Made by a program: the position numbers and the translations under genes
Virus record (IMG/VR): IMGVR_UViG_3300042868_001142
Span: 1 to 53,613 of that record
From: a virus
Lineage: Duplodnaviria > Caudoviricetes
Direction: 5' to 3' (one strand)
Length of the DNA: 53,613 bases
Notes under the pieces: model-generated
What the model was told of the DNA's origin: nothing
The model's database searches: none
What the model saw: only the letters and a program-made list of their open reading frames with translations
Shown here: piece after piece, positions 1 through 53,613 of the stretch
Numbering within the stretch: position 1 is the stretch's first letter
Layout: each line of letters opens with the position of its first letter

Positions 1-180
1 GATTTCTAGACCACTGCTGGTCAGGCGCATGGCCTCGGTGGCTGTTAGCTTCCAGATATAACTTGCTGCGTCAGAAATAATTGACGCATAGGAACTTCCA
101 GCATTATTTACAGCAATTAACGTAGGGTCGTTACCTGTAAATGTTATCCCAAGCTGATTAGTTCCGTTGGAAACACCAAG

Positions 181-2043
181 TTAAGTGCTAAGTGCAGTAG
201 CAGTGCCGCCAACACCCAAATTCGTCCCATCAAACGTCAGCGCAGAGCCAGTAGCCAATGCACTTGTAGAGCTTGCGTACACAACACCGTTGGCTGTGAA
301 TGACGATAAGCCAGTGCCGCCGTTTGCCGTTCCCACAACCCCGCTAGTGATCTGGTTGCCGTTGATCGCAATGGCAGTAGATGCCGCAGCCGTGAGTTGG
401 CCCTGGGCGTTCACCGTGTAGTTGGGTACTGAGCTTGCACTGCCGTAAGAACCGGCTGTAACAGTCGTGTTGGAGATGCTGAATTGCGTGCCGGTCAGCG
501 TCAGGCCCGTGCCTGCTGTGTATGTCCCCGCTCCGGAGAACTGCTGCCAAATGATGGCGTCAGTGCCGACAGTGGTCACCGGCTGAGTCTGAACCCAGCC
601 CGTTCCGGCGTACAGAGTCCCGTTGGTGACAAACGAATAATCTCCGCTTGCAATCTCAACTGACGTATCAAAATCCGTCGCCCTGGTCAAAACCGTGCCG
701 CCAGTGGCCCAGGTGTAGATGCCGTTGTTTGCCTGCGTTGCCTCGTTCTTGACCATCAGGCGGTTGCCGTTGAGCAGCGTGTAGCCGTCCACCACCGTCA
801 GAGGCGAGGAAAGCGTCAGGGTCGCACCAACCCCAGCCGTGCCGTTGTTGTACGTCACCGTGCCGCCAGTCAGCGAAGCCAGCGTGCCTGTGGTTGCCGC
901 ATCGCAAGAGGCGTGGATGTGCAGACCTTCAACAAAAGCGTCCACGTACTGCTTTGTGGCCAGTTGCAGGGCAGTTGTAGGGTCTTGGGTGACCTCAACA
1001 GAGGTCAGGCCACCCAGGGTAAGGCTGGACGCTCCAAGGCTGATTGCAGTCGTTCCAATGGTCACTGCGCTGTTGGTCAGGCTTGCGTTGGCAATATTGG
1101 TCAGCGTGTTGGATGAGCCGCTGATTGACTTGTTGGTCAGGGTCTGCGCGGCCGTGTTGGTGGTGACCGTGTCAGATCCGACCGTGGCGGCAGTCATGTT
1201 GAACGTGCCGCCTGTCACCGTCTTACCCGTGAAGGTCAGGGCATTTGGCAGCGACAAGACAACATCTGCCGCGCCTGTGGCTGTGATCTCGTTGGGCGTA
1301 CCCGTGACCGAAAGCACGCCGCCCGTCTGGGCAAACTGACGCCAAGCGCCAGCAGAATAGCCCTCATAAGCCCCGTCAGTGGTGTTATAGCGGATCTTGC
1401 CGTTGACGCCAGCAGGACGCTGACCAAGTGAGCCAGCAGGGATCAGGATTGCGCCAGCGCCCGGAATGATCGGGTTGTCAGCCAAGCCAATCGTCGGGTT
1501 TCCTGCGATGCCATTGGCGTTGGTCACGACCGTCTGGTCAGCTACGCCTGCAATCTGGGTGGCCGACAGCGCACCAGCCGTGGTGATCGTCATCAGACCG
1601 TTGGCGCTCAGGTTGGCCAGATTCAGAACTTGGCCAGCCAGGGACGTTGTCGGATCTCCCGCAATGCCATCGGCGTTGACGATTGACAGACCAGCCCCGG
1701 AAACGGCCATGGAACGGCCTGTAATGGCTGTTCCAGACGTTTTTACCTGAAAGCCAGTGCCAGATGCCACCAGGGCCGATAAAGCGCCTGTGGTCGTTAT
1801 ATTGAGCACACCCTGAGCACCACCGTCAGTGATGGTCAGCCCGTTGGTCGCACCAAGGTAGCGGCTGTTGGCCAACTGGGGCGTCTGGGTGACCGTCAGG
1901 TAGGTGTAAGGCTGCGACGGAGACGCGGCAATTGCGCCCGTGGTGGTCTGCACCGTCACGCCATTTTGGACAATCGGGACAGACTCAGCGCCAGTGATAG
2001 CACCAGCCGATGGGAGTTGGAGAATATCAACTTGTGCGGACAT
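181..2043 (-). CDS. Tail fibre-like structural protein, module L (frame stays open past the TAA to the window edge)
   Basis: 620 aa, G/T/A/S-rich; fibre motifs RP..GKIRYNT..YEGY, DPTTALQLATKQYVD, NRLMVKNE...NNGIY, YTAGTGLTLTG; last gene of the structural operon. Confidence 0.8.
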   Translation of the reverse strand: MSAQVDILQLPSAGAITGAESVPIVQNGVTVQTTTGAIAASPSQPYTYLTVTQTPQLANSRYLGATNGLTITDGGAQGVLNITTTGALSALVASGTGFQVKTSGTAITGRSMAVSGAGLSIVNADGIAGDPTTSLAGQVLNLANLSANGLMTITTAGALSATQIAGVADQTVVTNANGIAGNPTIGLADNPIIPGAGAILIPAGSLGQRPAGVNGKIRYNTTDGAYEGYSAGAWRQFAQTGGVLSVTGTPNEITATGAADVVLSLPNALTFTGKTVTGGTFNMTAATVGSDTVTTNTAAQTLTNKSISGSSNTLTNIANASLTNSAVTIGTTAISLGASSLTLGGLTSVEVTQDPTTALQLATKQYVDAFVEGLHIHASCDAATTGTLASLTGGTVTYNNGTAGVGATLTLSSPLTVVDGYTLLNGNRLMVKNEATQANNGIYTWATGGTVLTRATDFDTSVEIASGDYSFVTNGTLYAGTGWVQTQPVTTVGTDAIIWQQFSGAGTYTAGTGLTLTGTQFSISNTTVTAGSYGSASSVPNYTVNAQGQLTAAASTAIAINGNQITSGVVGTANGGTGLSSFTANGVVYASSTSALATGSALTFDGTNLGVGGTATALST

Positions 2044-2404
2044 TATGTGCTCGTGTTGTTGGGTGGGTTCGGTGCGATAGTGTCCTTGTTTCCGGTCGAG
2101 GTAGGCGTCTGGGTGTGTTGCCCTGAGTGGAAATCTGCAACTGAGAATTCCCGGTGGTCACCAGATAGTTGTCGCCAGCATTGAGCGGAAGGTCAGGACG
2201 AGGAAACCGAATCGTTATCCTCTCGGTTTTGCGTGCAGGCAACCGATAAGGGTCAAGCTGATCTGCGCAGCCCTCGTTGCACACCCGCAGGCCCGGAAAG
2301 TTTGGGTCGTTGCGCATCACAGCATGTGGCCGCTTTAACTTGCAGCGGTCACAAATCGCAATTGCGATGTCAGAGTAGCCCTCAGTGTCCAGAAAGATGG
2401 CCAT
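2027..2404 (-). CDS. Hypothetical phage protein with Cys motifs (CDRC...CNEGC); probable frameshift near 2115
   Basis: ORF track; TAATG coupling to the upstream endonuclease; an alternative frame ends at TAATG coupled to the fibre gene. Confidence 0.65.
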   Translation of the reverse strand: MAIFLDTEGYSDIAIAICDRCKLKRPHAVMRNDPNFPGLRVCNEGCADQLDPYRLPARKTERITIRFPRPDLPLNAGDNYLVTTGNSQLQISTQGNTPRRLPRPETRTLSHRTHPTTRAHNVRTS

Positions 2405-2931
2405 TAAACAGTCCTTCCTTGCGCAGCCAATGTGGCACGTCGAGACGCAACGCGCTTGGCAATCTGCTCAGGCGTCTGCTTGCTTCCTTTTTTCTTGGCC
2501 GATAACTTTGCGCGAGTTTCATCAGAAGATGGCACGCCTGCATTCGCGGGCGTTCTTCCAATCATCCAAGGCGTTGAACGAGACACACCCTTGAGTGGGC
2601 TGACATAACCTTCGCCACGAAACTTGGCCACAGGCGGCTTACCTCCGCCCATCACCAGATTCCAGCCAATTTCCTCTGCTGGGCGCAACTTGCTTTCAAG
2701 CTCATAGCAGTACGCCTCCTCCGCCACCACGACAACAGTTTTAATCAAAGAGTCCCAGCCGTGTTTTGCAATTGCATTGGACAAGCGAGGATTGTCGTGA
2801 CGACCTTTAGCATGCGCCCATTTGTGACCGTACAACCAGCGCTTATTGGCGTTTTTAGAGACGCCAACATACCCCTCAGACGTGATGTCAGAGTGGTGTG
2901 CTGCTCGTATCCAATAAACTTGGGCAATCAT
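2404..2931 (-). CDS. Free-standing GIY-YIG homing endonuclease with NUMOD3-like DNA-binding repeats
   Basis: VYWI...GYVGVS, RW..H, E..L, GWNL..GG; C-terminal SDETRAKLSAKKKG..QTPEQIAKR. Confidence 0.8.
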   Translation of the reverse strand: MIAQVYWIRAAHHSDITSEGYVGVSKNANKRWLYGHKWAHAKGRHDNPRLSNAIAKHGWDSLIKTVVVVAEEAYCYELESKLRPAEEIGWNLVMGGGKPPVAKFRGEGYVSPLKGVSRSTPWMIGRTPANAGVPSSDETRAKLSAKKKGSKQTPEQIAKRVASRRATLAAQGRTV

Positions 2932-3989
2932 GCTGTGTACGGCCGTATGTTTGGGGCAAAGTACACAGGACTTTTGTCGCGCTCTTCCTCTTCAGCCCGA
3001 CCAAGGTACTTGCTGGCTTGGCCTTCAAGGTACTGAATGCGGGCCATTTCCACGCCAGGAAGCTCAAGGCTCATCCTGTGGGACAGCATCATGATCACGG
3101 CCTCGTACCAGCGCTGTGGCACCTCCAACTCGCCGTACAGGTCACCCACGTCCATGATCTGGCGCGAGTACCAGATGGTCATCTGGTAGAACGCATTCTG
3201 GGGCGTTGGCCACAGCACAATCTCGCTCTGAGGGATGGTGCGGTTGAACCAGAACTGGAAGGGCTGGTTGGCCGTGAAGTTCTTGTTGGGCAGGTTGGTG
3301 TAGTCGTCGCGGTTCAGGCGAGACATCGTGATCTCGGTGCTGTTGTTGCCCAAGTACCACTCGCGCAGGCTTAGGGTCGTGCCGCCGTAGGCCCGGATGC
3401 GGTAATACGGCACGGTCTGGCCGTTCTCAATGTCAGTCCACACCCACTCGTTGTTGGTCACCGTAATGGACCCAAGATCCACCAGGGTGGACCATGTCAC
3501 GTTGTCAAGGGAGTATTCGTAAATGATTGACCAAGTTCCCGTGGCCGCTGGCAGAAAGCCAATTGAGCCGATGAAGATGGGATTTGAAGGGCCGAAGTTG
3601 ACCGCAATGTTGCCATTGGCCGATGTCTGAGTGCAAACCGTCTGCACGTCCTCGTCGTACAGGTTGGACACCGTGCCGCCAGCAGAAGACGTATACGCCC
3701 CATTTGGGCGGTTCATGAAGCGGTACAGGGCGTTAAGCACATCATTGCCGCCAAGGGGCAGCAGGTACGTTGCTTTGTCTGCCGTGAAGCCGTAGACCTT
3801 CTTGTCAATTGCCCAATACTGGATGCCAATGTTGATCAGGTCCGACAGCAGGAAGAAAAGAGACTCACGGGCGCTCAGAACCTGCTCAGAGGTCAATTCC
3901 TCGGCCAGCTTGCCACAGCGACGAGCGCCGTGGTCAATCATCGTCTGGACCGTTACAACGGTCGTGCCCGTGGTTCCCGAATAAGCCAT
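2928..3989 (-). CDS. Putative head-tail adaptor protein with an internal beta-sandwich (discoidin-like) insert
   Basis: N-terminal helices (HGARRCG...SARESLFFLL), IVLWPTP and EVPQRWYEAV motifs typical of podovirus adaptors; position after head genes. Confidence 0.6.
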   Translation of the reverse strand: MAYSGTTGTTVVTVQTMIDHGARRCGKLAEELTSEQVLSARESLFFLLSDLINIGIQYWAIDKKVYGFTADKATYLLPLGGNDVLNALYRFMNRPNGAYTSSAGGTVSNLYDEDVQTVCTQTSANGNIAVNFGPSNPIFIGSIGFLPAATGTWSIIYEYSLDNVTWSTLVDLGSITVTNNEWVWTDIENGQTVPYYRIRAYGGTTLSLREWYLGNNSTEITMSRLNRDDYTNLPNKNFTANQPFQFWFNRTIPQSEIVLWPTPQNAFYQMTIWYSRQIMDVGDLYGELEVPQRWYEAVIMMLSHRMSLELPGVEMARIQYLEGQASKYLGRAEEEERDKSPVYFAPNIRPYTA

Positions 3990-7576: not shown

Positions 7577-8491
7577 TTACATGCCGGGCGTGCCGTACAT
7601 TGCGCGTGGGTCGGTAAACCCAGGAATGTAACGCTCGGTAGCCTTGTAGCGCATTGAGTCGGTCTCAAAATCGCCTTCCATGGTCTTCTCCAGCTTGCGG
7701 CGCATCATGAGCTTCATGCCTTCTGGGGCGTCGGTCTGCACGAAGAATGCCGTGGGGCTGGTCAGACGGCTGATCACGGCAGCGCCTTCGTCCAGCAAGC
7801 CGATAGACTTGACAGGGTTCAGGTCGTTGTTTGCCGTGCCTGAGCGCAGAACGCTCTTGAGCAGCACTTCGGCCTGGAAGACGTTGCCAGGAGCGACCAC
7901 CAGTTGGCGGGGCACCAGACGGATCTTCTTGCCGTTGTTGTCCACAGCCTGACGGATCTGGATCAACATCTGCTCCAGAGAAGTCTGGGACAGGTTGGCC
8001 GCAGTGGTCAACTGGTTGCTGAACGTACCGTTCACGATGGGGTGAGCAGTGTTGATCAGGGACACGCCGTCGCCGCCAGGAAACGCGCTGTTGAAAGCAC
8101 GGTTCAAGACGTTTGCGCACAAGGTCTCTTTGGTCTCAATCAGAGACTGAGCCAAGTGGCGAGCGTAAACCTGACCGATACGGATGTGGTCGCCGTCTTC
8201 AACCAGCACTTTGGTCAACGCGAAGGCCAAGCCAAACACGTTGTACACATAGCGCTGCAGGAACAGAACGCCGCCCTGCTGGTAGCTAACGGGAGTGCCG
8301 TCAGGCAACTGGGGGGCCGCGCCAAAACCGTACAGGACGGGTTCTTCGTGGTAGTTGCGGGGGATACCGTCTTGTTCGCGGAACACACGGCTCCACTCGT
8401 CGGTACGTTGGTCGTAGACTCCGTCGAAGCACTCGTTGAGGATAGGCTCAACGATTGACCGAAAGTCCGTACTGCGCATTGGTGCTGCCAT
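7577..8491 (-). CDS. Major capsid protein, module L (Bbp17/Mu gpT-like, HK97 fold)
   Basis: 304 aa; LYGFGAAP, FALTKVLVED, ARHLAQSL.ETKE, GGDGVSL...AHP, EGDFETDSMRYKATERY, DPRAMYG; optimised codons. Confidence 0.85.
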   Translation of the reverse strand: MAAPMRSTDFRSIVEPILNECFDGVYDQRTDEWSRVFREQDGIPRNYHEEPVLYGFGAAPQLPDGTPVSYQQGGVLFLQRYVYNVFGLAFALTKVLVEDGDHIRIGQVYARHLAQSLIETKETLCANVLNRAFNSAFPGGDGVSLINTAHPIVNGTFSNQLTTAANLSQTSLEQMLIQIRQAVDNNGKKIRLVPRQLVVAPGNVFQAEVLLKSVLRSGTANNDLNPVKSIGLLDEGAAVISRLTSPTAFFVQTDAPEGMKLMMRRKLEKTMEGDFETDSMRYKATERYIPGFTDPRAMYGTPGM

Positions 8492-11184: not shown

Positions 11185-11327
11185 TTTTTCTTCGCCTGTG
11201 ACAGACCTCCTGACTGCTTGGTTGGGGTGGAACCCTTCATGCTCTGGCCGTCAATCGGAACGCCCATTGCCATACGCTTGTGCTGGGGCACATTGATGCT
11301 CTTTTGCTCTTGGTCACTCGTAGCCAT
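11181..11327 (-). CDS. Small hypothetical protein (48 aa, MATSDQEQ...)
   Basis: SD AAGGAG before ATG 11327; overlaps the portal stop. Confidence 0.5.
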   Translation of the reverse strand: MATSDQEQKSINVPQHKRMAMGVPIDGQSMKGSTPTKQSGGLSQAKKK

Positions 11328-18688: not shown

Positions 18689-18736
18689 GCTCGTCGCCTT
18701 TCTGAGGTATGACGCCATCATAAACGGTGAGCTGTG

Positions 18737-21352: not shown

Positions 21353-21395
21353 GACCGTAGTCCTCGTCCGTTTAGATGAGGCGGATGTTACCAAG

Positions 21396-21611: not shown

Positions 21612-21636
21612 TTTGGCTCTCCTGTTTGTTTTGAGT

Positions 21637-21651
21637 AAACCGATTCGGTTT
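21637..21651. promoter_or_regulatory. Palindrome AAACCGATTCGGTTT upstream of the module-L packaging operon
   Basis: perfect 7+1+7 inverted repeat in an intergenic gap. Confidence 0.4.
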
Positions 21652-21706
21652 CTTTTCGCTTCCCAATCGCTTTGCGTAATAGCTTGCACCATGCAAAAGC
21701 GTGGTC

Positions 21707-23680: not shown

Positions 23681-23710
23681 AGGGTACTCCAGTTGATTGA
23701 GGGAGCCGCG

Positions 23711-34087: not shown

Positions 34088-34093
34088 TCTGTA

Positions 34094-36178: not shown

Positions 36179-36360
36179 GCAAGCACCTCGAACCCATCAG
36201 CAAACTCAACGCTCGCGAGCCGAAGATGTCCGGCGGCGGGATGCCCGACCGCAACAAAGAGACGTACTCCAAGATGCCCGGCATGGGCTGCCACGGTAGC
36301 ATTCCCGCAGGCAACAACGTCAAAGCGACCGTTGCCAAGGTTCTGAGCAAGATTAAGTGA
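36175..36360 (+). CDS. Small basic hypothetical protein
   Basis: 61 aa, ATGA coupling, SD AAAGGA. Confidence 0.6.
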   Translation: MSKHLEPISKLNAREPKMSGGGMPDRNKETYSKMPGMGCHGSIPAGNNVKATVAKVLSKIK

Positions 36361-36362
36361 CT

Positions 36363-40022: not shown

Positions 40023-40043
40023 AACTTTGAAAGGACTCGCATC

Positions 40044-41252
40044 ATGGCGAATAGCATTCTTACCATTGACATGATCACGCGGAAGGCTCTGGAGATTCTG
40101 GAGAACAACCTCGTGCTCACCCGTAACGTGAACCGTCAGTACGACGACAGCTTCGCTGTTGAAGGTGCCAAGATCGGTTCGACTCTGCGTATCCGTCTGC
40201 CTGACCGCGCTCTGGTCACCGACGGCGCGGCCCTGCAAGTTCAGGACGACAACGAGCAGTTCACCACCCTGACTGTTTCTTCACAGAAACACATCGGCGT
40301 GAACTTTACCTCTGCCGAACTGACCATGCAGTTGGACGACTTCGCAGAGCGTGTCTTGAAGCCTCGTATCAGCCAGTTGGCCTCGTCCATCGACGCCGAC
40401 GTGGCAAACAGCTACAAGTACATCGGCAACACCGTTGGCACGCCTGGCTCTACCCCCAGCACCTCGCTGGTTCTGCTGCAAGCCCAGCAGAAGCTCAACG
40501 AAAACGCTGCTGTGATGAGCCCGCGCTACGCAACCGTTAACCCGGCTGCCAATGCTGGCCTGGTTGAGGGCATGAAAGGTCTGTTCAACCCAACCGACAC
40601 CATCAGCAAGCAGTTCAAGAACGGCATGATGGGTATGGGCGTGCTGGGCTTCGACGAAGTCAACATGTCTCAGTCGATCAAGCAGTTCACCACCGGCTCG
40701 CGCACCGCTACCGGCGGCACCCTGTCGGCTGCTGTGACTGCCGAAGGCGCAACCACCATCGCCATCACCGGCGCCGGTGCTAGCGCTACCGTCAAGATCG
40801 GCGACGTGTTTACTGTTGCTGACTGCTTCGCTGTAAACCCGCAGACCCGTGAATCCACTGGTTCGCTGTTCCAGTTCGTCGCTGCTGCTGACGTGACCCT
40901 GAACGGCTCTGGCGCTGGCAACATCACCGTGGCTCCGATGTACTCGGCCAACCACGCGCTGGCTACTGTGGACGTTCTGCCGCAGAACAGCAAGGCTGTG
41001 GTGTTTGTGGGCGCGGCTTCCAGCCAGTACGCTCAGAACTTGGTCTACCACAAGGACGCGATCACCTTTGCTACCGCCGACCTGCTCCTGCCGCAAGGTG
41101 TGGACATGGCCGCTCGCGCCGTTCACAATGGCATCAGCTTGCGCGTTGTTCGTCAGTACGACATCAACAACGACCGTATGCCCTGCCGTATTGACGTGCT
41201 GTACGGCTACAGCGTGATTCGTCCTCAGATGGGCGTTCGCCTCTGGGGTTGA
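40044..41252 (+). CDS. Major capsid protein, P22 gp5-like, module R
   Basis: KIG.TLRIR.P, LDDF.ER.L.P, I.LR...QYD......CR.DVLYG....RP. Confidence 0.9.
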   Translation: MANSILTIDMITRKALEILENNLVLTRNVNRQYDDSFAVEGAKIGSTLRIRLPDRALVTDGAALQVQDDNEQFTTLTVSSQKHIGVNFTSAELTMQLDDFAERVLKPRISQLASSIDADVANSYKYIGNTVGTPGSTPSTSLVLLQAQQKLNENAAVMSPRYATVNPAANAGLVEGMKGLFNPTDTISKQFKNGMMGMGVLGFDEVNMSQSIKQFTTGSRTATGGTLSAAVTAEGATTIAITGAGASATVKIGDVFTVADCFAVNPQTRESTGSLFQFVAAADVTLNGSGAGNITVAPMYSANHALATVDVLPQNSKAVVFVGAASSQYAQNLVYHKDAITFATADLLLPQGVDMAARAVHNGISLRVVRQYDINNDRMPCRIDVLYGYSVIRPQMGVRLWG

Positions 41253-42485: not shown

Positions 42486-43217
42486 ATGGCGACCTACACC
42501 GCAGGCGAACAGATTAACCGGGCGTTGCGGCTGCTAGGTGTGCTGGCCGAGAGCGAAACGCCGACGGCCGCTGTGTCTCAAGACGCCTTGATGGCGCTCA
42601 ACCAGATGATCGACTCGTGGAACACCGAGCGGTTGTCTGTCTTTGCCACCATCGACCAGATCGTCAACTGGCCGGTCGGCTCGATCAACGAAACCCTTGG
42701 CCCTAGCGGCTCCTTGGTGCGCCTCAATGGCACCGCCGTGCGCCCGGTCTTGGTGGACGACGCCACCTACTTCAAAGACCCCGGCACGGGCGTGTCCTAC
42801 GGCATCAAGCTGATCAATCAGCAGCAGTACGACGGCATCGCGGTCAAGACCGTGACCTCGACCTTCCCGCAGGTGATGTTCGTCAACAACACCTACCCGA
42901 ACTTCGACATCTACATCTACCCGCGCCCGACACGGCTGCTGGAGTGGCACTTCATCAGCGTGCAAGAGTTGACGCAGCCGGCTGAGTTGGTCACTGAGAT
43001 TCTTTTCCCGCCAGGCTACCTGCGGGCCTTCACATACAACTTGGCTTGCGAGCTTGCGCCAGAGTTTGGCGTCGAGCCGTCGCCTCAAGTGCAGCGCATT
43101 GCCATGACCAGCAAGCGCAACCTCAAGCGCATCAACAACCCTGACGATGTGATGTCGATGCCGTACTCGCTGATTGCGACGCGGCAGCGGTTCAACATCT
43201 ACGCCGGCAACTATTGA
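42486..43217 (+). CDS. Head-tail adaptor, P22 gp4-like
   Basis: INRALRLLGVL...AL.ALNQMIDSW, PPGY..A..YNLA.ELAPEFG. Confidence 0.75.
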   Translation: MATYTAGEQINRALRLLGVLAESETPTAAVSQDALMALNQMIDSWNTERLSVFATIDQIVNWPVGSINETLGPSGSLVRLNGTAVRPVLVDDATYFKDPGTGVSYGIKLINQQQYDGIAVKTVTSTFPQVMFVNNTYPNFDIYIYPRPTRLLEWHFISVQELTQPAELVTEILFPPGYLRAFTYNLACELAPEFGVEPSPQVQRIAMTSKRNLKRINNPDDVMSMPYSLIATRQRFNIYAGNY

Positions 43218-44662
43218 TGAAAACGCCGATCTTAGGTTCCAGCTACGTCGCCCGCAGCGTCAATGCTGCGGACAACCGCATGGTCAACATGTACCCCGAG
43301 ATCGTGCCCGAAGGCGGCAAGAGCGCGGCGTTTCTGTCGCGCTGCCCTGGCCTGCGCCGGCTGGTTGCGGCCGGCAGCGGCCCGATCCGTGGGCTGTGGG
43401 TGCTCAAGGAGTACCTGTACGCCGTCTCAGGCGACACGTTCTACCGGCTCAACGTGATCGGCGACACGACCCGCTGGAAGATCAAGCCATTGGGCACGGT
43501 GACCGGAACCGGCCCGGTGTCCATATCGGACAACGGCACGCAGATTTTCATCGCCTGCAACCCCGACGGCTTCATCTACAACGCGACCACTGAGGTGTTC
43601 GCTAAGATCACTGACCCGGATTTCCCCGGCGCGGTCAAGGTGGGCTACCTTGATGGCTACTTCGTGTTCAACGAACCTAACAGCGCGCGGGTGTGGGTGA
43701 CGTCCTTGCTCGACGGCCTGTCTGTCGATCCGCTTGACTTCGCCAGCGCCGAGGGTGACCCGGACGGCTTGGTGTCGCTGATCGTCGATCACCGCGAGGC
43801 GTGGCTGTTCGGCACCAACTCGATCGAGGTCTGGTACGACGCGGGGCTGCCTGACTTCCCGTTGCAGCGCATCCAAGGCGCGTTCAACGAGATCGGCTGC
43901 GCTGCCCCGTACTCGGTTGCCAAGCTCGACAACGGCCTGTTCTGGCTGGGGTCTGACGCTCGCGGCCGAGGCATCGTCTACCGCGCCAACGGCTACACCG
44001 GCACGCGCATCTCAACCCATGCGATTGAGTGGCAAATCCAGCAGTACGGCAACTTGTCGGATGCCATCGGCTACACCTACCAGCAAGACGGTCACGCCTT
44101 CTACGTGCTGATTTTCCCGAGCGCCCAGACCACTTGGGTCTACGACGTGGCGACCCAAGCCTGGCACGAGCGGGCCGGCTGGGACAATGGCGACTTTGTG
44201 CGCCATCGGTCTAACTGCCAGGCGGTCTACGACGACCAGATCGTTGTCGGCGACTTCGAGAACGGCAACATCTACGCCTTTGACCTGAACGAGTACGCCG
44301 ACAACGGCGACATACAGAAGTGGCTGCGCTCGTGGCGGGCGCTGCCGCCCGGCACCAACACCCTCAAGAGGACCGCGCACCACAGCCTGCAAGTCGATTG
44401 CGAGGCGGGCGTCGGCACCAACACCGGCCAAGGCAGCGACCCGCAGATGATGCTGCGCTGGTCGGACGACGGCGGGCACACTTGGTCTAACGAGTATTGG
44501 GTGCCGATGGGCAAGATCGGCGAGTACTACCGCCGCGTCATTTGGCGGCGGCTGGGCATGACGCTCAAGCTGCGTGACCGTGTGTACGAGATTTCGGGCA
44601 CAGACCCTGTCAAGCTCGCTATCATGGACGCCGAACTGATCGTGTCGCCGACCAATGCCTGA
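43217..44662 (+). CDS. Tail hub / packaged DNA stabilisation protein, P22 gp10-like
   Basis: DFASAEG.PD, GCAA..S, RIST.AIE, LRWSDDGG.TWS. Confidence 0.85.
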   Translation: MKTPILGSSYVARSVNAADNRMVNMYPEIVPEGGKSAAFLSRCPGLRRLVAAGSGPIRGLWVLKEYLYAVSGDTFYRLNVIGDTTRWKIKPLGTVTGTGPVSISDNGTQIFIACNPDGFIYNATTEVFAKITDPDFPGAVKVGYLDGYFVFNEPNSARVWVTSLLDGLSVDPLDFASAEGDPDGLVSLIVDHREAWLFGTNSIEVWYDAGLPDFPLQRIQGAFNEIGCAAPYSVAKLDNGLFWLGSDARGRGIVYRANGYTGTRISTHAIEWQIQQYGNLSDAIGYTYQQDGHAFYVLIFPSAQTTWVYDVATQAWHERAGWDNGDFVRHRSNCQAVYDDQIVVGDFENGNIYAFDLNEYADNGDIQKWLRSWRALPPGTNTLKRTAHHSLQVDCEAGVGTNTGQGSDPQMMLRWSDDGGHTWSNEYWVPMGKIGEYYRRVIWRRLGMTLKLRDRVYEISGTDPVKLAIMDAELIVSPTNA

Positions 44663-46241
44663 ACAGCAAAATATCACCAACATACCCTCTAACCGTGTCG
44701 AGATCATTGATCCGCGCACGGGGATGGTGTCGCGTGAGTGGTATCGGTTCTTTCTCAACCTGTTCAACCTTGCCGGCAACGGCGGCAACCAGACGTCGCT
44801 AGACGATCTGCAAGTCGGCCCTCCGCCGATACCAGACTCCGGCGGTGGGGGTGGCGGCTCGGGCACGGTGACCTCGGTCAACATGACGGTGCCTACGGGG
44901 CTGTCCGTCTCCGGCAACCCGGTCACCACGGCCGGCACGCTGGCGGTCACCTACACAGCCGGCTACTCCATCCCCACCACTGCAAGCCAAACGAATTGGG
45001 ATACAGCCTATTCGGAGCGGTTGCAGTGGGACGGCGGGGCCACGAACCTTGTGGCCGCCACGGGCCGCACGTCGCTCGGCGCCACGACGGTGGGCGCTAA
45101 CTTCTTCACTCTAGCCAACCCCAGCGCCATTACGTTCGTCCAGATCAACGCGGACAACAGCATCACCACGATGGACGCGCCCACGTTCCGCACGGCCATT
45201 GGCGCGGGCACTGGTTCGGGCACGGTGACGTCGGTCAGTGGCACAGGCACGGTCAGCGGGCTGACCCTGACCGGCACGGTGACGTCCTCGGGCAGCCTGA
45301 CGTTGGGCGGCACGCTGGCCGTCACGCCGTCGGACTTTGCGTCCCAGAGCGCCAATACGTTCTTGGCCGCGCCCAACGGCTCTGCGGGCGTGCCGTCTTT
45401 CCGCACAATAGTTGCTGCCGACGTGCCGGCCCTGAGCTACGTCAGTTCAGTTGGCGCCTCGGCCCCGCTGGCGTCTACGGGAGGGTTAACCCCTACGCTC
45501 AGTATCCCGGTTGCTACGTCCAGCGCCGACGGCTACCTGTCCAGCACCGACTGGAGCACGTTCAACAGCAAGCAGCCGGCAGGAGCGTACCTGACCTCGG
45601 TGGCTGTGGCGACGGCCAACGGGTTTGCGGGCACTTCTAGCGGCGGCACAACGCCGTCCCTGACGCTCACGACCAGCGTGACTGGGGTGCTCAAGGGCGA
45701 CGGCACGGCGATCTCTGCGGCCACGGCGGGCACCGACTACTCGGCTGGCACCAGTTCGCTGGCAACTGGCATCCTGAAGTCCACCACAGGGACTGGCGCG
45801 CTGACGATCGCTGTCGCAGGCGATTTCCCAACCCTCAATCAGAACACCACGGGCACTGCGGCCAACGTGACTGGCACGGTGGCGATCGCCAACGGCGGCA
45901 CGGGCCAGACCACTCAAACGGCGGCGTTTGACGCCCTGTCGCCCTTGACCACCAAGGGCGACCTGATCGGGTTCGACGGCACGGACAACGTGCGGCTGGC
46001 CGTGGGCACGAACAACCAAGTGCTGACGGCCGACTCGACCACGGCTACGGGCCTCAAGTGGGCTGCGGCGTCTGGGGGCAGCAGCAACATCACGGCGCTG
46101 GGGCTGTGGGAAAATAACGCGACGATTTCGGCCAACTATTCGATCACTGCCGGCAACAACGGGATGTCCTCTGGCCCGATTTCGGTGGCCTCTGGCGTCA
46201 CGGTTACGGTGCCGTCAGGCTCGTCGTGGGCTGTTGTTTAA
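44655..46241 (+). CDS. Tail-associated fibre-like protein
   Basis: N-terminal REWYRFF module, GSGTVTSV repeats, IANGGTG, LTTKGDL; C-terminal EN...GPISV...VTVP...W domain. Confidence 0.65.
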   Translation: MPEQQNITNIPSNRVEIIDPRTGMVSREWYRFFLNLFNLAGNGGNQTSLDDLQVGPPPIPDSGGGGGGSGTVTSVNMTVPTGLSVSGNPVTTAGTLAVTYTAGYSIPTTASQTNWDTAYSERLQWDGGATNLVAATGRTSLGATTVGANFFTLANPSAITFVQINADNSITTMDAPTFRTAIGAGTGSGTVTSVSGTGTVSGLTLTGTVTSSGSLTLGGTLAVTPSDFASQSANTFLAAPNGSAGVPSFRTIVAADVPALSYVSSVGASAPLASTGGLTPTLSIPVATSSADGYLSSTDWSTFNSKQPAGAYLTSVAVATANGFAGTSSGGTTPSLTLTTSVTGVLKGDGTAISAATAGTDYSAGTSSLATGILKSTTGTGALTIAVAGDFPTLNQNTTGTAANVTGTVAIANGGTGQTTQTAAFDALSPLTTKGDLIGFDGTDNVRLAVGTNNQVLTADSTTATGLKWAAASGGSSNITALGLWENNATISANYSITAGNNGMSSGPISVASGVTVTVPSGSSWAVV

Positions 46242-46250
46242 GGAATTAAC

Positions 46251-46592
46251 ATGACCGTCACAGCGCGAAACCTAGTGCCTGCGAAGCTGGTGGAGGACAC
46301 CCAGACTACTCAGTACATCGTGCCGACCAACGCCACGGCCACGATCATCGACAAGTTCACCGCGACAAATGTCAGTGGTAGCCCGGCCACAATCAGTGTA
46401 AACTTGGTCACAGGTTCGGACGTCCCAGGTAACAACAACTTGATCACCAAGACCAAAAGTCTAGCGGCGGCCGAGGTCTACACGTTTCCTGAATTGGTGG
46501 GGCAGATCATGCCAACAGCCTCGTTCATCTCAACGATTGCCAGTGCTGCCAGCGCCATCAACATGCGTGTCAGTGGGCGCGAAGTGACGTAA
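46251..46592 (+). CDS. Small tail-associated protein
   Basis: 113 aa beta-rich, IDKFTATN, SGRE end; SD AAGGA. Confidence 0.6.
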   Translation: MTVTARNLVPAKLVEDTQTTQYIVPTNATATIIDKFTATNVSGSPATISVNLVTGSDVPGNNNLITKTKSLAAAEVYTFPELVGQIMPTASFISTIASAASAINMRVSGREVT

Positions 46593-46602
46593 GGAGATCG
46601 CA

Positions 46603-47313
46603 ATGGTTTGGAACGTAATTATTCCCGCCGCCGCCGCGTTAGTCGGCGGTCGTATGTCGGCTAGAGCAGCAACTAGCGCGGCTGAAACTCAAGCCGCCGC
46701 CGCAGATCGCGCATCTGAAGTGCAGCGCGACATTTTTGAGCGGCAGGTTGAACTTAGCAGACCTTATCGAGAGGCCGGCGAACTCGCGCTCAACAAACTC
46801 ATCCCTCTGGCGACCGAGTACACGCCGTTTGGGATGGAGCAGTTCCAAGCCGATCCGGGCTATGCGTTCCGCATGTCTGAGGGCATGAAAGGTTTGGAGC
46901 GGTCGGCTGCGGCTCGTGGCGGCCTGCTGTCTGGCTCCATGCTTAAAGGCATCCAGCGGTACGGCCAAGACCTTGGCTCGCAAGAGTACATGAATGCGTT
47001 TAATCGGTACCAGACTGAGCGCAACGCGCGGCTCAACCCGTTGCAATCGCTTGCCGGCGTGGGCCAGACTGCGTCGCAGACGTTGGGCGAAGCGGCGCGC
47101 GGCTATGGTACTAATGTTGGCAACCTCATGATGGGTTCTGCTGAAGCTGCGGGTAACGCACGAATGGCTCGCGCATCGGCCTACGGTAACACGCTGAACC
47201 AACTAGCGTATTTGGGCGGCCGTTACATGGGTGGCGGTGGCGGTGGTGGTGGTGGTGGCGGTGGCGGCGGTGGTGGCTACATGCCGGGCTATGACCCTTA
47301 TCTTGACAGGTAA
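46603..47313 (+). CDS. DNA ejection (pilot) protein, P22 gp7-like, with a poly-Gly tail
   Basis: Ala-rich N-terminus, DPGY.FR..EG, SAAARGGLLSG; 16 Gly codons at 47230..47277. Confidence 0.75.
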   Translation: MVWNVIIPAAAALVGGRMSARAATSAAETQAAAADRASEVQRDIFERQVELSRPYREAGELALNKLIPLATEYTPFGMEQFQADPGYAFRMSEGMKGLERSAAARGGLLSGSMLKGIQRYGQDLGSQEYMNAFNRYQTERNARLNPLQSLAGVGQTASQTLGEAARGYGTNVGNLMMGSAEAAGNARMARASAYGNTLNQLAYLGGRYMGGGGGGGGGGGGGGGGYMPGYDPYLDR

Positions 47314-51606: not shown

Positions 51607-52284
51607 ATGGCCTCACTCTCTCCGCCGCCAAAGCTACAGTTTTTCGGGACTGATGGGTTGCCTCTTGTCGGTGGCAAGCTGTTCACCTACGCGGCGGGCA
51701 CGACCACGCCGATCGCCACGTACACGGACCATACCGGCAGCAGCCTAAACACCAACCCGATCATCTTGGACTCGGCCGGGCAGGCCAACGTGTGGCTGAC
51801 CGACACCACCACGTACAAGTACACCCTGACCACGCCCACCAACGTGCCTCTGTTCACGGTCGATTACGTGTCGGTGCCCTTGACGACCAACTCGTTCGCC
51901 TCGCCCCCGGCTATCGGCAGCAGCGTTCCCAACGAAGGCACGTTCACCAACCTGAACGTCGTGGACCTGATGACCCTTGAGGGCACGGGCGCTGCGATCA
52001 TCAACGTCGGCACCACGGGCGAGCGGCCAGCAAGCCCCGAGGAGGGTATGGTTCGCTACAATAGCACCACGACCAAGTTCGAGGGCTACAACGGCGCGTG
52101 GGGCGCTCTGGGCGGCGGTGCGACGGGCGGCGGCTCCGACACGGTGTTCTTCGAGAACAGCTTGACCGTGACGCAGAACTACACCATCCCCGCTGACAAG
52201 AACGCCGGCACCTTCGGCCCCATCTCGGTTGCTGACAGCATCACCGTGACCGTGCCGTCCACCAGTGTATGGTCAATAGTTTGA
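51607..52284 (+). CDS. Tail fibre base/adaptor (head-binding N-terminal domain plus hinge)
   Basis: G.PL.GGKL.TY.AGTTTP, NPIILDSAG, RP....G..RYN.T..FEGY, C-terminal FEN...GPISV domain. Confidence 0.7.
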   Translation: MASLSPPPKLQFFGTDGLPLVGGKLFTYAAGTTTPIATYTDHTGSSLNTNPIILDSAGQANVWLTDTTTYKYTLTTPTNVPLFTVDYVSVPLTTNSFASPPAIGSSVPNEGTFTNLNVVDLMTLEGTGAAIINVGTTGERPASPEEGMVRYNSTTTKFEGYNGAWGALGGGATGGGSDTVFFENSLTVTQNYTIPADKNAGTFGPISVADSITVTVPSTSVWSIV

Positions 52285-52297
52285 TTTAGGAGCCGTC

Positions 52298-52894
52298 ATG
52301 GGTGTTAAATTAGTTTCGGCAAGCGGCGGCTCGGTTGAGATCAACCCGCCCGCCACCGCGAGCAGCTTCACGGCCACGATGCCCGCCGGCACTGGCAACG
52401 TGGTGGTCGCCGGCATCAACAGCGCGATTGTCTCGGGCACCGCTCAGGCATCGACGTCTGGTACGTCGATTGATTTTACCGGCATCCCGTCGTGGGTGCG
52501 GCGGGTCACGGTGATGTTCAACGGGGTGAGCACGAACGGGACTAGTTCAATTCAACTTCAAATTGGCACTAGTTCTGGGGTTGTCTCTACTGGATATCTT
52601 TCACATTCTGGTTTCATACAATCAAGCGCAGTTGGCTCAAGCGTAGCTACAACTGGCTATGTAATTGTTAATGCAGTTGCAAGCGACGTGCTTTACGGCC
52701 CATTTGTTATCACAACAACCGGGTCAAATGTATGGAACGCTTCAGGCTCATTTTTTAGAGACGCCAGCACTGACTACAGCATTATCTCCACGGGGACAAT
52801 CACCCTCGGTGGCACCCTCGACCGCGTCCGCATCACAACCGTCAACGGCACTGACGCCTTCGACGCTGGCTCCATCAACATTTTGTACGAGTAA
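52298..52894 (+). CDS. Tail fibre / receptor-binding module
   Basis: STSGTSIDFTGIPSWV.R.TV...LDRVRITT.NGTD.FDAGSINILYE. Confidence 0.6.
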   Translation: MGVKLVSASGGSVEINPPATASSFTATMPAGTGNVVVAGINSAIVSGTAQASTSGTSIDFTGIPSWVRRVTVMFNGVSTNGTSSIQLQIGTSSGVVSTGYLSHSGFIQSSAVGSSVATTGYVIVNAVASDVLYGPFVITTTGSNVWNASGSFFRDASTDYSIISTGTITLGGTLDRVRITTVNGTDAFDAGSINILYE

Positions 52895-52899
52895 ACACC

Positions 52900-53565
52900 A
52901 TGCCAACAAAAATCGATGGAAACAACGGTGTCTTGCAGTCGTATGACTTCCAAGTCCTGACAACGGGCTTCTCGTACACCTTCGCCTCGGGCACCACGAC
53001 CCTGATCGCGGTGCCCGCCGGCACGCTGGCGACGGGCACGATCACGATGCCAGGCTCGCCGGCTGACGGCATGGTGATTACCATCACCACCACGCAGCAG
53101 ATCACGGCGCTCACGATTGCCGGCAACACAGGCCAGTCGATCGGCGGCACCCAGGTGTCGCTGATGGCCGCCAACAGCGCCATGAGCTTTGTGTACCGCC
53201 TGTCCGACACAACATGGTACCGCAACAGCGCCCCGGCGCTGGGCAACATCGGCACCGCGCCCGTGTACGCCGCCCGCGCTTGGGTGAACTTCAACGGCAC
53301 GGGCACCGTGGCGATCCGCGCCTCGGGCAACGTGACTTCGATTACCGACAACGGCACGGGCGACTACACCATCAACTTCACGACGGCGATGCCGGATGCA
53401 GATTACGCAATCACTGTTGGGGCGATAAACAATGCAACAAATACAAATACAGCCAACAACATCAATCAAGGGTCATCGCCAACAACAACCTCATTCAGAA
53501 TACAACACGTTGAAAATAGCTCTCCGGCTGATACTACCTATATCAATTGCTCAGTATTCCGTTAA
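52900..53565 (+). CDS. Tail fibre / receptor-binding module
   Basis: ARAWVNFNG...NV.SITD.GTGDY..NF...M.DA.Y. Confidence 0.6.
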   Translation: MPTKIDGNNGVLQSYDFQVLTTGFSYTFASGTTTLIAVPAGTLATGTITMPGSPADGMVITITTTQQITALTIAGNTGQSIGGTQVSLMAANSAMSFVYRLSDTTWYRNSAPALGNIGTAPVYAARAWVNFNGTGTVAIRASGNVTSITDNGTGDYTINFTTAMPDADYAITVGAINNATNTNTANNINQGSSPTTTSFRIQHVENSSPADTTYINCSVFR

Positions 53566-53574
53566 GGACTAATC

Positions 53575-53613
53575 ATGCCAATCACGATAGACGGTAACGG
53601 GATCATCACAGGC
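53575..53613 (+). CDS. Start of a further tail module (truncated by the window edge)
   Basis: SD AAGGA; MPITIDGNGIITG resembles the MPTKIDGNNG start of the previous gene. Confidence 0.45.
   Translation, partial: MPITIDGNGIITG

What the first reader, a model, noticed from the sequence alone, without database searches (positions are those of the whole stretch)
1..53613. Two unrelated virion-assembly kits diverging from a single replication module
Seen: two TerS, two TerL, two portals, two scaffolds, two capsid proteins of different families, two adaptors and two fibre sets on opposite strands, with one nuclease-SSB-PolA-primase block between them and no host DNA, integrase or att site. Established: tailed phages normally carry one head/packaging module, and phage P22 packs roughly 43 kb, less than this window. 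Inference: a natural hybrid or dual-virion element, a recombination co-integrate of two phages, or an assembly chimera through a shared small gene. Chimera is the conservative explanation, but no seam is visible.
Basis: partly seen in the sequence, partly recalled or inferred. Interest (0 to 1): 0.85.

Follow-up and report, generated by a model that had tools for sequence, protein, structure and literature searches.

The report
Two lake phages joined in one contig
The contig really does carry two complete virus-building gene sets, but it is most likely pieces of two ordinary lake phages stitched together by the assembler at a short stretch of early genes that these phages share.

Summary
The window is a 53,613-bp IMG/VR virus record, classed linear with no end repeat. 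It carries two packaging/head/tail gene sets on opposite strands and one exonuclease-SSB-PolA-primase block.

The replication block is not shared. It belongs to the right arm (R, 22,932-53,613). R is collinear with 37-39 kb circular P22-like phages and essentially the same strain as three IMG/VR contigs that carry a different, conventional left flank. One of these closes R into a circle of about 36 kb.

The left arm (L, 1-21,962) is the late arm of a Riverwalkvirus-like podophage. Complete L-type relatives have one virion kit and their own replication genes.

A seam does exist, at 21,962-23,290. It is a mosaic of small early-gene cassettes shared among three co-occurring phage lineages and bounded by an 18-nt motif. 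One stretch of 141 nt is identical in the window, R-type and a third lineage.

None of 164 related contigs shows an L-R join. Against this, L and R have equal depth in three lake runs; a fourth holds R-like sequence only.

Verdict: assembly chimera about 0.68, real recombinant or cointegrate about 0.22, adjacent prophages about 0.05, working dual-virion phage about 0.03.

The parts
181..2043 (-). L arm: tail-fibre-like protein (620 aa). The contig ends 180 nt after its stop codon.
   Evidence: 41% identity over 750 aa to the 'phage-related tail fiber protein' region of MW202545.1; phrog hits.
2404..2931 (-). Homing-endonuclease-like gene inside the L arm.
   Evidence: phrog_314, E 7e-17. No tblastn match in MW202545.1 at E 1e-4.
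2928..3989 (-). L arm: head-tail adaptor-like protein.
   Evidence: 63% identity to the MW202545.1 'tail adaptor'; phrog_12985; weak PF24175 SU10_adaptor match below cut-off.
7577..8491 (-). L arm: major capsid protein.
   Evidence: PF25209, E 8.5e-10, and Mu gpT. 90% aa identity to the MW202545.1 MCP and 77% to RW_GP086c. 100% aa identity in the complete 53.8-kb record G003.
11314..13866 (-). L arm: portal protein.
   Evidence: phrog_1216; 63% identity to the MW202545.1 'head to tail connecting protein'.
13880..18721 (-). L arm: 1613-aa polyvalent protein between TerL and portal.
   Evidence: PF18760 ART-PolyVal, E 8.5e-12, and PF14284 PcfJ, E 5e-9.
19339..20757 (-). L arm: terminase large subunit.
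   Evidence: Terminase_6N/6C. 66% identity to MW202545.1; 97-98% aa in IMG/VR loci L006, L007, L088 and L089.
20750..21523 (-). L arm: terminase small subunit. The true start is probably nearer 21400.
   Evidence: PF20901 Sf6_terminase, E 5e-37; phrog_1482.
21396..21706 (-). 71-aa gene (start 21611) plus the 95-nt intergenic stretch 21612-21706. Both are specific to the L lineage.
   Evidence: The 71-aa protein is found in 40 L-type loci, 0 R-type and 0 T-type. A 46-nt probe from the intergenic stretch is exact in L006, L007 and L171. Logan contigs of X1 and X2 cover 21327-22262 and 21327-22116 without mismatch.
21707..23773 (-). Seam zone: eight tightly packed small early genes of 80, 48, 132, 84, 66, 69, 92 and 89 aa, forming a mosaic of cassettes.
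   Evidence: ORFs. Breakpoints against relatives: L006/L007 stop matching at 21962; L088/L089/L118 at 22392; T-type L168/L169 match 22470-23290; R-type L008-L010 match from 22932. Protein sharing across lineages.
22932..22949 (-). 18-nt boundary motif, read on the coding strand as GCAAGGGGGCAAGCATGA. It combines the C-terminus ..RGQA, the stop codon, the RBS and the next start. Further copies lie at 22089-22106 and, with 1 mismatch, at 21947-21961. This copy is the exact point where R-type relatives begin to match.
   Evidence: The motif also occurs in 9 of 89 L-type loci and 14 of 82 R-type loci; shuffled controls gave 0-1 hits.
23786..24904 (+). R arm: RecB-type/PD-(D/E)XK exonuclease. The likely start is 23786, not 23519.
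   Evidence: phrog_69, E 1e-74. Aligns end to end with the MW202483.1 gene (53%). 323 IMG/VR relatives.
24843..25550 (+). R arm: gene at the SSB position.
   Evidence: 61% identity to the MW202483.1 neighbour of the exonuclease; phrog_9528; no Pfam hit.
25884..27809 (+). R arm: family A DNA polymerase.
   Evidence: phrog_17, E 1.6e-95; 62% identity to the MW202483.1 DNA polymerase.
27734..30169 (+). R arm: primase / VirE-like protein.
   Evidence: phrog_1156; 51% identity over 848 aa to MW202483.1 'virulence associated protein E'.
33623..35623 (+). R arm: putative TerS (33623-34087) and TerL (34094-35623).
   Evidence: TerL: phrog_2; 77% identity to MW202483.1 and 68% to DSL-LC05. TerS is named by position only.
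36357..38543 (+). R arm: P22-like portal.
   Evidence: PF16510, E 9e-178.
39231..41252 (+). R arm: scaffold (39231-40022) and P22-type coat protein (40044-41252).
   Evidence: phrog_8865 and phrog_283; PF11651, E 1e-39; 83% identity to the MW202483.1 coat.
42486..47313 (+). R arm: gp4-like adaptor, gp10-like head closure, a 528-aa protein, a 113-aa protein and an ejection protein.
   Evidence: phrog_12985/637, phrog_578 and phrog_598.
51607..53565 (+). R arm: three fibre-like genes. The contig ends 48 nt after the last stop codon.
   Evidence: phrog tail-fibre hits. The homologous stretch in L009 continues about 5.8 kb (fibre, endolysin, ferredoxin-like, SNF2-type helicase) back to window position 22932.

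Best explanation
The contig is most likely an assembly chimera of two ordinary, unrelated lake phages.

- **R** (about 22,932-53,613) is 30.7 kb of a roughly 36-38 kb circular P22-like phage. It owns the exonuclease-SSB-PolA-primase block.
- **L** (1 to about 21,962) is the late-gene arm of a roughly 54-57 kb Riverwalkvirus-like podophage. Its own replication genes are not in the contig.

Both lineages, and a third one (T), carry an operon of small early genes in the same orientation. That operon is built from interchangeable cassettes. Cassettes that are 98-100% identical occur in different lineages.

The assembler probably walked out of the L genome into such a shared cassette and left it along the R genome.

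Shown:
- the lineage of each arm;
- the position and mosaic nature of the seam;
- the existence of the same R strain with a different flank;
- the absence of the join from other assemblies.

Inferred: that the L strain in the source sample carries the cassette, and that the join is an artefact rather than a real crossover.
For: 1. **The replication block and the R virion kit are contiguous elsewhere.**
   - They are collinear in circular genomes MW202483.1 (38.8 kb) and DSL-LC05 (37.6 kb).
   - They are also collinear in IMG/VR contigs L011, L019, L033 and L036.

2. **The same R strain exists with a different left flank.**
   - L008, L009 and L010 come from three other samples and match the window at 99.1-99.6% from exactly 22932 rightwards.
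   - L008 and L009 show 0 mismatches over 22932-23831. L008 is mostly 0 mismatches per 300 nt over 6.8 kb.
   - Left of 22932 they carry a flank shared with other R-type contigs.
   - L009 links window 51555-53406, through about 5.8 kb (fibre, endolysin, ferredoxin-like, SNF2-type helicase), back to 22932. R therefore closes on itself.

3. **L-type relatives are complete with one kit.**
   - G003 is 53,844 bp with a 127-nt end repeat. Its MCP is 100% identical in aa, and it has no P22 coat.
   - MW202545.1 is 57.5 kb and circular.
   - L171/L007 (90% nt) carry initiator, primase and DnaB-like genes upstream of TerS, where the window has R.

4. **No related contig shows the join.**
   - 0 of 80 L-type loci match the window right of 22620.
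   - 0 of 80 R-type loci match any L structural gene. The only hits are about 120 nt at 22265-22406 in 5 loci, and the small gene at 3987-4233 in 3 loci.
   - L006, L007 and L171 do not show it either.
   - A 60-nt probe across 22470 found 0 contigs in IMG/VR and 0 in JGI metagenome contigs.

5. **The seam is repeat-rich between genomes.**
   - T-type contigs L168/L169 share 22470-23290 at 98%.
   - 22932-23072 (141 nt) is identical in the window, R-type and T-type.
   - L170 joins the T-type left flank to the R-type right flank through the same cassette.
   - Different assemblies therefore pair the flanks differently.

6. **The window has no end repeat** and is classed linear.

7. **R-like sequence occurs without L.** Run X17 holds an R-like variant at depth 10-21 and essentially no L.
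Against: - **Equal depth of the arms.** Long Logan contig pieces with 0-1 mismatches to the window:

  | Run | L pieces | R pieces |
  |---|---|---|
  | X1 | 15.2, 17.8, 23, 12.1 | 15.9, 17.2, 18.2, 16.8 |
  | X2 | 13.4, 20.9, 18.1, 17.9, 13.4 | 18.4, 14.4, 18.8 |
  | X7 | 4.3, 5.2, 3.2, 3.5 | 4.4, 4.9, 4.2 |

  The coverage step that a chimera of unrelated phages would usually show is absent. Two points weaken this. X1 and X2 may be sibling samples or the source. And, as I recall, metagenome assemblers are most prone to mis-join across a repeat when the two genomes have similar coverage.
- **The assumed L strain was not found.** I found no L-type genome that carries the g84-g66-g69 cassette in the window's form and then continues into L-type early genes. 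The shared L/R repeat that the chimera needs is inferred, not shown.
- **The left part of the seam is real in reads.** Logan contigs of X1 and X2 span 21327-22262 and 21327-22116 without mismatch.
- **Real crossover is plausible.** Cassette indels at the motif borders appear in the reads (joints), so real recombination at these borders does occur.
Confidence: 0.68

Rival explanations
1. The join is real DNA. A crossover in the homologous early-gene cassettes between a co-infecting L-type and R-type phage produced a recombinant or cointegrate. The window shows one of its two junctions. The molecule need not be packageable or functional as a dual-virion phage.
For: - The L:R depth ratio is about 1 in X1, X2 and X7, and the pieces have 0-1 mismatches to the window.
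- Both lineages carry homologous cassette genes in the same orientation. One search counts: g80 in 8 L-type and 12 R-type loci; g132 in 6 and 6; g69 in 2 and 26; g89 in 11 and 33.
- The boundary motif occurs in both lineages.
- Cassette indels at motif borders appear in reads (table 5).
- L170 shows a comparable T-R join.
Against: - If the arms are linked at equal depth, the whole population of both arms in those runs would have to be the linked form. A full cointegrate (about 54 + 36 kb) exceeds the genome sizes of either lineage's relatives.
- The join appears in only one assembly.
- The identical R strain occurs with its conventional flank in three other assemblies.
- No listed contig piece bridges 22262-23243 in X1 or X2. 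Only the longest pieces are listed.
Confidence: 0.22
2. L and R are two prophages, or prophage-like elements, resident in the same host strain, adjacent or in the same cell. Their depths then equal the host's depth.
For: Equal depth in three runs. Both contig ends lie inside phage genes, so host DNA could lie beyond them.
Against: - No integrase, tRNA or att-like repeat in the window.
- No integrase among the six large ORFs scanned in L009's closing region.
- There is no host DNA between the arms. The join is gene-to-gene inside an operon of phage cassettes.
- Relatives are circular or end-repeat viral genomes.
Confidence: 0.05
3. A working hybrid phage of about 54 kb carries two virion kits, replicates with the R module, and is packaged in the larger L-type head.
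For: - The window is 53,613 bp, close to the complete L-type genome of 53,844 bp.
- Depth of the arms is equal.
- All large ORFs listed under 'parts' are open.
Against: - No end repeat or circular closure.
- The L arm stops at the fibre gene. It lacks the genes that follow the fibre in MW202545.1: tail protein, 'stabilization protein', endolysin and a transglycosylase-domain protein.
- The R arm lacks its endolysin and SNF2-type helicase.
- No relative among 164 contigs has two kits.
- My literature search for phages with two capsid/portal/terminase sets found no such report. I saw the listing only.
Confidence: 0.03

Closest known systems
Uncultured P22-like lake phages MW202483.1 (38.8 kb, circular) and Phage DSL-LC05 (OR003940.1, 37.6 kb; proposed family 'Luchaoviridae', PMC10611076, passages read)
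   Same: R arm. The gene order is the same: exonuclease, SSB-position gene, PolA, primase/VirE, then TerS, TerL, P22 portal, scaffold, P22 coat, gp4-like adaptor, gp10-like protein and ejection proteins. Identity to MW202483.1 is 51-83% aa and to DSL-LC05 up to 79%. IMG/VR contigs L008-L010 are 99.1-99.6% identical in nt.
   Different: The window lacks about 5.8 kb that closes the circle in L009: fibre, endolysin, ferredoxin-like gene and SNF2-type helicase. In its place, left of 22932, it has cassettes followed by the L arm.
Riverwalkvirus-like podophages: Caulobacter phages RW/RLK/KcrB/GB2A (62 kb; PMC11053796, section 3.5 read), MW202545.1 (57.5 kb) and IMG/VR record G003 (53.8 kb)
   Same: L arm. 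It is collinear from TerS through TerL, portal, GroES-like gene and capsid protein to adaptor and fibre. MCP identity is 77% to RW, 90% to MW202545.1 and 100% to G003.
   Different: - Only the 21.9-kb late arm is present. The lineage's own replication genes are absent. In RW these are helicase/primase, DUF2800, DUF2815 and PolA. In L171 they are initiator, primase and DnaB-like genes.
- The window has a 1613-aa polyvalent protein where MW202545.1 has a shorter hypothetical gene (46150-48822).
- The window also has an extra homing-endonuclease-like gene.
Inter-genome repeat chimeras in short-read metagenome assemblies (general knowledge; search listing seen, no paper read)
   Same: - Two genomes of different lineage are joined at a stretch shared at near identity.
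- Both contig ends lie in hypervariable fibre genes.
- The flanks are paired differently in different assemblies (window, L168/L169, L170).
   Different: No coverage step between the arms in the three runs laid. The shared L/R stretch itself was not recovered from an independent L-type contig.
Mosaic module boundaries in tailed phages (conserved short boundary sequences at gene borders in lambdoid phages; recalled, no paper read here)
   Same: Small early genes are swapped as cassettes at gene borders that carry a conserved short sequence. That sequence overlaps the stop codon, the RBS and the next start.
   Different: Here the same 15-18-nt motif and near-identical cassettes occur in three lineages with unrelated virion genes in lake metagenomes. 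Its role in recombination was not tested.

Membership tests
P22-like phage (R arm) | P22-type coat protein and P22-type portal | tested here: met
   PF11651, E 1e-39 over the full length. PF16510, E 9e-178.
P22-like phage (R arm) | gp4-like adaptor, gp10-like head closure protein and ejection protein downstream of the coat gene | tested here: met
   phrog_637/12985, phrog_578 (E 5e-129) and phrog_598.
P22-like phage (R arm) | Genome of about 36-44 kb that closes on itself with one virion kit | tested here: met
   For relatives only. MW202483.1 and DSL-LC05 are circular. L009 links window 53406 to 22932 through about 5.8 kb. The window itself does not close.
Riverwalkvirus-like phage (L arm) | Collinear late operon with the lineage's capsid, portal and TerL | tested here: met
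   identity to RW is 77% (MCP), 46% (portal) and 42% (TerL). Identity to MW202545.1 is 90%, 63% and 66%.
Riverwalkvirus-like phage (L arm) | The lineage's own replication genes on the same molecule | tested here: not met
   None in the window. The replication block matches the R lineage: 51-62% identity to MW202483.1, against 29-32% to RW for the exonuclease and PolA.
Single genome with two virion kits (hybrid or cointegrate) | The same join in independent assemblies | tested here: not met
   0 of 80 L-type and 0 of 80 R-type IMG/VR loci, and none of L006, L007, L171 or G003, carry both arms. The probe across 22470 gave 0 hits in two collections.
Single genome with two virion kits (hybrid or cointegrate) | Reads or contigs that bridge L-specific and R-specific sequence | tested here: inconclusive
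   Logan contigs cover 21327-22262 (X1) and 23243-23881 (X2). No listed piece spans 22262-23243 in X1 or X2. The X7 piece at 22380-23175 diverges left of about 22445. Only the longest of 1146 pieces are listed. The runs are kept as contigs, not raw reads.
Single genome with two virion kits (hybrid or cointegrate) | Equal abundance of the two arms across samples | tested here: inconclusive
   The ratio is about 1 in 3 of the 4 runs laid. X17 holds R-like sequence only.
Single genome with two virion kits (hybrid or cointegrate) | Terminal repeat or circular closure | tested here: not met
   No end repeat. IMG/VR class 'linear'.
Assembly chimera across an inter-genome repeat | The join lies in sequence shared between different genomes over at least the assembler's word length | tested here: inconclusive
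   Met for the R and T lineages: 141 nt are identical and 22470-23072 is 99.8% identical. The 127-nt end repeat of G003 suggests words of 127 in such assemblies; this is an inference. Not shown for an L-type genome.
Assembly chimera across an inter-genome repeat | Coverage step between the joined parts | tested here: not met
   Equal depth in X1, X2 and X7.
Assembly chimera across an inter-genome repeat | The same strain of one arm occurs with another flank | tested here: met
   L008, L009 and L010.

The most novel reading that the evidence does not exclude
The join is real. In this lake population, a Riverwalkvirus-like late arm and a near-complete P22-like phage sit on one replicon of about L-type genome size. 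It was made by crossover at motif-bounded early-gene cassettes. It carries two intact virion kits and is maintained at one-to-one stoichiometry.
Probability: 0.05. Interest if true: 0.85.

Novelty: not a real feature. Interest (0 to 1): 0.25.

Why it matters
If the join is an artefact, as is most likely, the record is a warning for viral databases. CheckV rates this contig 100% complete, yet it mixes two phages. Gene-sharing networks or host predictions built on it would link unrelated lineages.

The by-product has some interest of its own. Three phage lineages with unrelated virion genes in the same lakes share small early genes at 98-100% nucleotide identity. The cassettes are bounded by a conserved 15-18-nt stop/RBS/start motif. 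This points to very recent exchange, and probably to a common host.

If the join were real, it would be the first tailed-phage replicon known to me with two complete virion kits.

Tried and rejected
- **Seam at the 95-nt intergenic stretch 21612-21706.** Rejected. L-type relatives at 90% identity run through it to 21962. Logan contigs of X1 and X2 span it.
- **Seam between primase and the R-arm TerS (30-33.6 kb).** Rejected. R-type contigs L011, L019, L033 and L036 are collinear across it.
- **Replication block belonging to L.** I considered this because phage RW has a similar exonuclease/DUF2815/PolA cassette. Rejected on identity: 29-32% to RW against 53-62% to MW202483.1.
- **Composition.** Tetranucleotide correlation is 0.82-0.84 between adjacent segments within an arm and 0.65-0.78 between arms. 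GC is 0.56 against 0.60. This fits two genomes but says nothing about linkage.
- **Share-of-words clustering.** Shares of 0.39-0.44 in 12 of 24 runs suggest single-arm holders. Only X17 was laid, so this is no evidence.
- **Depth arithmetic in the cassette zone.** The contig at 22551 has depth 34.9 in X1 and 28.8 in X2. A variant joint at 22221>22360 has depth 19.8 and 10.1. These figures fit either reading.
- **Relatives of the 132-aa cassette protein** (35 loci). The best are 66-80% identical. None has the window's allele, so they do not show what lies beside it in an L-type genome.
- **Promoter scan of 20.5-24.5 kb.** 0 promoter-like sites.
- **Literature.** One search (two capsid/portal/terminase sets) and one search (chimeric viral contigs): listings only, nothing used beyond that. 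Supplements were not opened.

Full report
**What the window is**

The window is the whole of a one-contig IMG/VR virus record of 53,613 bp. The record is classed linear, and CheckV rates it 100% complete. I found no terminal direct repeat and no tRNA.

On the minus strand, from 21.5 kb down to 0.2 kb, lie:
- an Sf6-type TerS;
- a TerL;
- a 1613-aa polyvalent protein (ART-PolyVal and PcfJ domains);
- a portal and a GroES-like gene;
- a capsid protein of the Phage_capsid_4 / Mu gpT kind;
- an adaptor-like protein and a fibre-like protein.

On the plus strand, from 23.8 kb, lie:
- an exonuclease, an SSB-position gene, PolA and a primase/VirE protein;
- after about 3.4 kb of small genes, a putative TerS and a TerL;
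- a P22 portal, a scaffold and a P22 coat protein;
- a gp4-like adaptor, a gp10-like protein, an ejection protein and fibre genes.

- The right-arm TerS is named only by position.
- No left-arm scaffold was identified.
- The two adaptors share a PHROG family.

**Who owns what**

I compared every open frame of the window by tblastn with five reference stretches.

- **Right arm (R).** Everything from 23,444 to the right end is collinear with MW202483.1, a circular 38.8-kb P22-like genome. Identities are exonuclease 53%, SSB-position gene 61%, PolA 62%, VirE 51%, TerL 77% and coat 83%. From TerL onward it is also collinear with DSL-LC05 (37.6 kb, circular).
- **Left arm (L).** Everything from 184 to 21,529 is collinear with MW202545.1 (57.5 kb, circular; MCP 90%) and with Caulobacter phage RW (62 kb; MCP 77%). 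RW belongs to the proposed genus Riverwalkvirus (PMC11053796, section 3.5 read).

The replication block therefore belongs to the R lineage. It is not a common core. IMG/VR contigs L011, L019, L033 and L036 carry the replication block and the R packaging genes contiguously. L-type phages have their own replication genes:
- RW has helicase/primase, DUF2800, DUF2815 and PolA.
- L171/L007, 90% identical to the window's TerL-TerS region, has initiator, primase and DnaB-like genes a few kb upstream of TerS.

**Locating the seam**

Between TerS_L and the exonuclease lie nine small, tightly packed minus-strand genes. The exonuclease most likely starts at 23,786, because it aligns end to end with the MW202483.1 gene.

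Relatives stop matching the window at staggered points:

| Relatives | Lineage | Extent of match to the window |
|---|---|---|
| L006, L007, L171 (90% nt) | L-type | up to 21,962 |
| L088, L089, L118 (79-84%) | L-type | up to 22,392 |
| L152-L154 (94%) | L-type | 22,484-22,610 |
| L008, L009, L010 (99.1-99.6%) | R-type | from exactly 22,932 rightwards |
| 15 further R-type loci | R-type | from 23,392-23,404 |
| 26 R-type loci | R-type | only from 23,790 |

A 55-nt probe across 22,932 found three contigs of a third lineage, T. T has its own PolA at 26% identity, and its capsid protein is 39% identical to that of L.
- L168 and L169 share only 22,470-23,290 with the window, at 98%.
- L170 shares 22,470-23,726 at 99.4%. 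It joins the T-type left flank to the R-type right flank.

At single-base level:
- T-type differs from the window at one position (22,551) over 22,470-23,072. It then accumulates 15 differences up to 23,279.
- L008 and L009 have none over 22,932-23,831.
- So 22,932-23,072 (141 nt) is identical in the window, the R-type strain and the T-type.

**The cassette borders carry a motif**

On the coding strand the motif reads GCAAGGGGGCAAGCATGA. Three proteins end in ..RGQA, and the next gene starts in the overlap. With at most one mismatch, the 15-nt core occurs:
- 11 times in 9 of 89 L-type loci;
- 18 times in 14 of 82 R-type loci;
- in all 3 T-type loci;
- 0-1 times in shuffled controls.

The cassette proteins form a common pool:

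| Protein | L-type loci | R-type loci | T-type loci |
|---|---|---|---|
| g71 | 40 | 0 | 0 |
| g80 | 8 | 12 | 0 |
| g48 | 4 | 0 | 0 |
| g132 | 6 | 6 | 0 |
| g84 | 3 | 0 | 3 |
| g66 | 13 | 0 | 3 |
| g69 | 2 | 26 | 3 |
| g92 | 0 | 3 | 3 |
| g89 | 11 | 33 | 1 |

g84 and g66 occur in L and T but not R. g92 occurs in R and T but not L.

**Each arm is an ordinary genome elsewhere**

- L009 (11.1 kb) links window 51,555-53,406, through about 5.8 kb, back to 22,932. That stretch holds a fibre gene, an endolysin, a ferredoxin-like gene and an SNF2-type helicase. This gives an R circle of about 36 kb.
- L008 is mostly identical to the window over 6.8 kb, with three small divergent patches. The same R strain therefore exists with the conventional flank in other samples.
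- G003 is a 53,844-bp L-type genome with a 127-nt end repeat. Its MCP is identical in amino acids to the window's, and it has no P22 coat.
- None of the 80 L-type loci matches the window right of 22,620.
- None of the 80 R-type loci matches an L structural gene. The only hits are to a conserved 120-nt core of g132 and to a small mobile gene at 3,987-4,233.
- A 60-nt probe across 22,470 found nothing in IMG/VR or in JGI metagenome contigs.

**Reads**

Twenty-four lake-water runs hold part of window 17,501-27,500. I laid four of them on 12,001-32,000. All four are kept as Logan contigs, not raw reads.

- X1, X2 and X7 hold both arms with 0-1 mismatches. Depths are equal: about 17.5 against 17.7, 18.4 against 19.6, and about 4.1 against 4.5.
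- X17 holds an R-like variant only. Its depth is 10-21 from about 22.7-23.3 kb rightwards, and L is about 0.
- Contigs of X1 and X2 span 21,327-22,262 and 21,327-22,116.
- No listed piece spans 22,262-23,243 in X1 or X2. Only the longest pieces are listed.
- Joints at the motif borders (22,111>22,928; 22,116>22,484; 22,116>23,262) show cassette variants in the populations.

**Weighing the readings**

For a chimera:
- Both arms are standard single-kit genomes elsewhere.
- The identical R strain has another flank in three assemblies.
- The join is unique to this record.
- It lies in the one zone where different phages share sequence longer than assembler words.
- Flanks are paired differently in different assemblies.
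- The contig does not close.

For a real join:
- The arms have equal depth in three runs.
- No independent L-type contig was found that carries the window's cassette.

I discount the depth argument for two reasons, but not to zero. X1 and X2 may be the source or sibling samples. And, as I recall, similar coverage is the very condition under which assemblers mis-pair repeat flanks.

If the join is real, the molecule is most plausibly a recombinant or cointegrate made by crossover in the cassettes. A working dual-virion phage is unlikely: the L arm lacks the later tail and lysis genes of its lineage, and the R arm lacks its endolysin and helicase.

My odds:

| Reading | Odds |
|---|---|
| Assembly chimera | 0.68 |
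| Real recombinant or cointegrate | 0.22 |
| Co-resident or adjacent prophages | 0.05 |
| Working dual-kit phage | 0.03 |
| Other | 0.02 |

**Limits**

- No raw reads were available for these runs.
- Paper supplements were not opened.

Noticed in passing
window 21947-21961, 22089-22106, 22932-22949; L007 2042-2056 and 2269-2283: A conserved 15-18-nt stop/RBS/start motif (coding strand GCAAGGGGGCAAGCATGA) marks the borders of small early-gene cassettes. It occurs in L-, R- and T-type phages far above shuffled expectation. Three window proteins end in ..RGQA because of it. It may be a recombination hotspot at module boundaries.
   Followed up: partly
window 13880-18721 (-): A 1613-aa 'polyvalent' protein lies between TerL and portal of the L arm. 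It has an ADP-ribosyltransferase domain (ART-PolyVal) and a PcfJ-like domain. This region has no nucleotide match in the complete L-type genome G003.
   Followed up: no
window 7577-8491 (-); L005 29831-30745 (RW_GP086c): The paper on the Riverwalk cluster (PMC11053796, section 3.5) says the major capsid gene of RW has not been identified. RW_GP086c is 77% identical to the window's protein, which matches PF25209 Phage_capsid_4 and Mu gpT. It is therefore the likely capsid gene of RW.
   Followed up: partly
window 3991-4407 (-) and 35915-36175 (+): Small genes carry a domain shared between the two lineages. The L-arm gene is 64% identical (86 aa) to a gene between TerL and portal of DSL-LC05. 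An R-arm ORF is 76% identical (42 aa) to part of a MW202545.1 gene next to its adaptor. These are further signs of gene traffic between the lineages.
   Followed up: no
window 2404-2931 (-): A homing-endonuclease-like gene (phrog_314) sits between the adaptor-like gene and the small gene upstream of the fibre gene in the L arm. It has no counterpart at that place in MW202545.1.
   Followed up: no
L170 (4,309-nt IMG/VR contig): This contig joins the T-type left flank (99.3% to L168/L169) to the R-type exonuclease side (99.1% to L009/L010) through the same cassette. It is either another chimera or another recombinant.
   Followed up: partly
window 26008-26674: Summed contig depth rises to 350-369 in X1 and X2, against about 17 beside it. 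A conserved PolA segment seems to be shared by many phages in these lakes.
   Followed up: no
L055 (record G001, 58,183 bp): A 58-kb record rated complete encodes an exonuclease 75% identical to the window's. It has neither the P22-type coat nor the L-type capsid protein. The exonuclease module therefore also travels with other virion kits.
   Followed up: no
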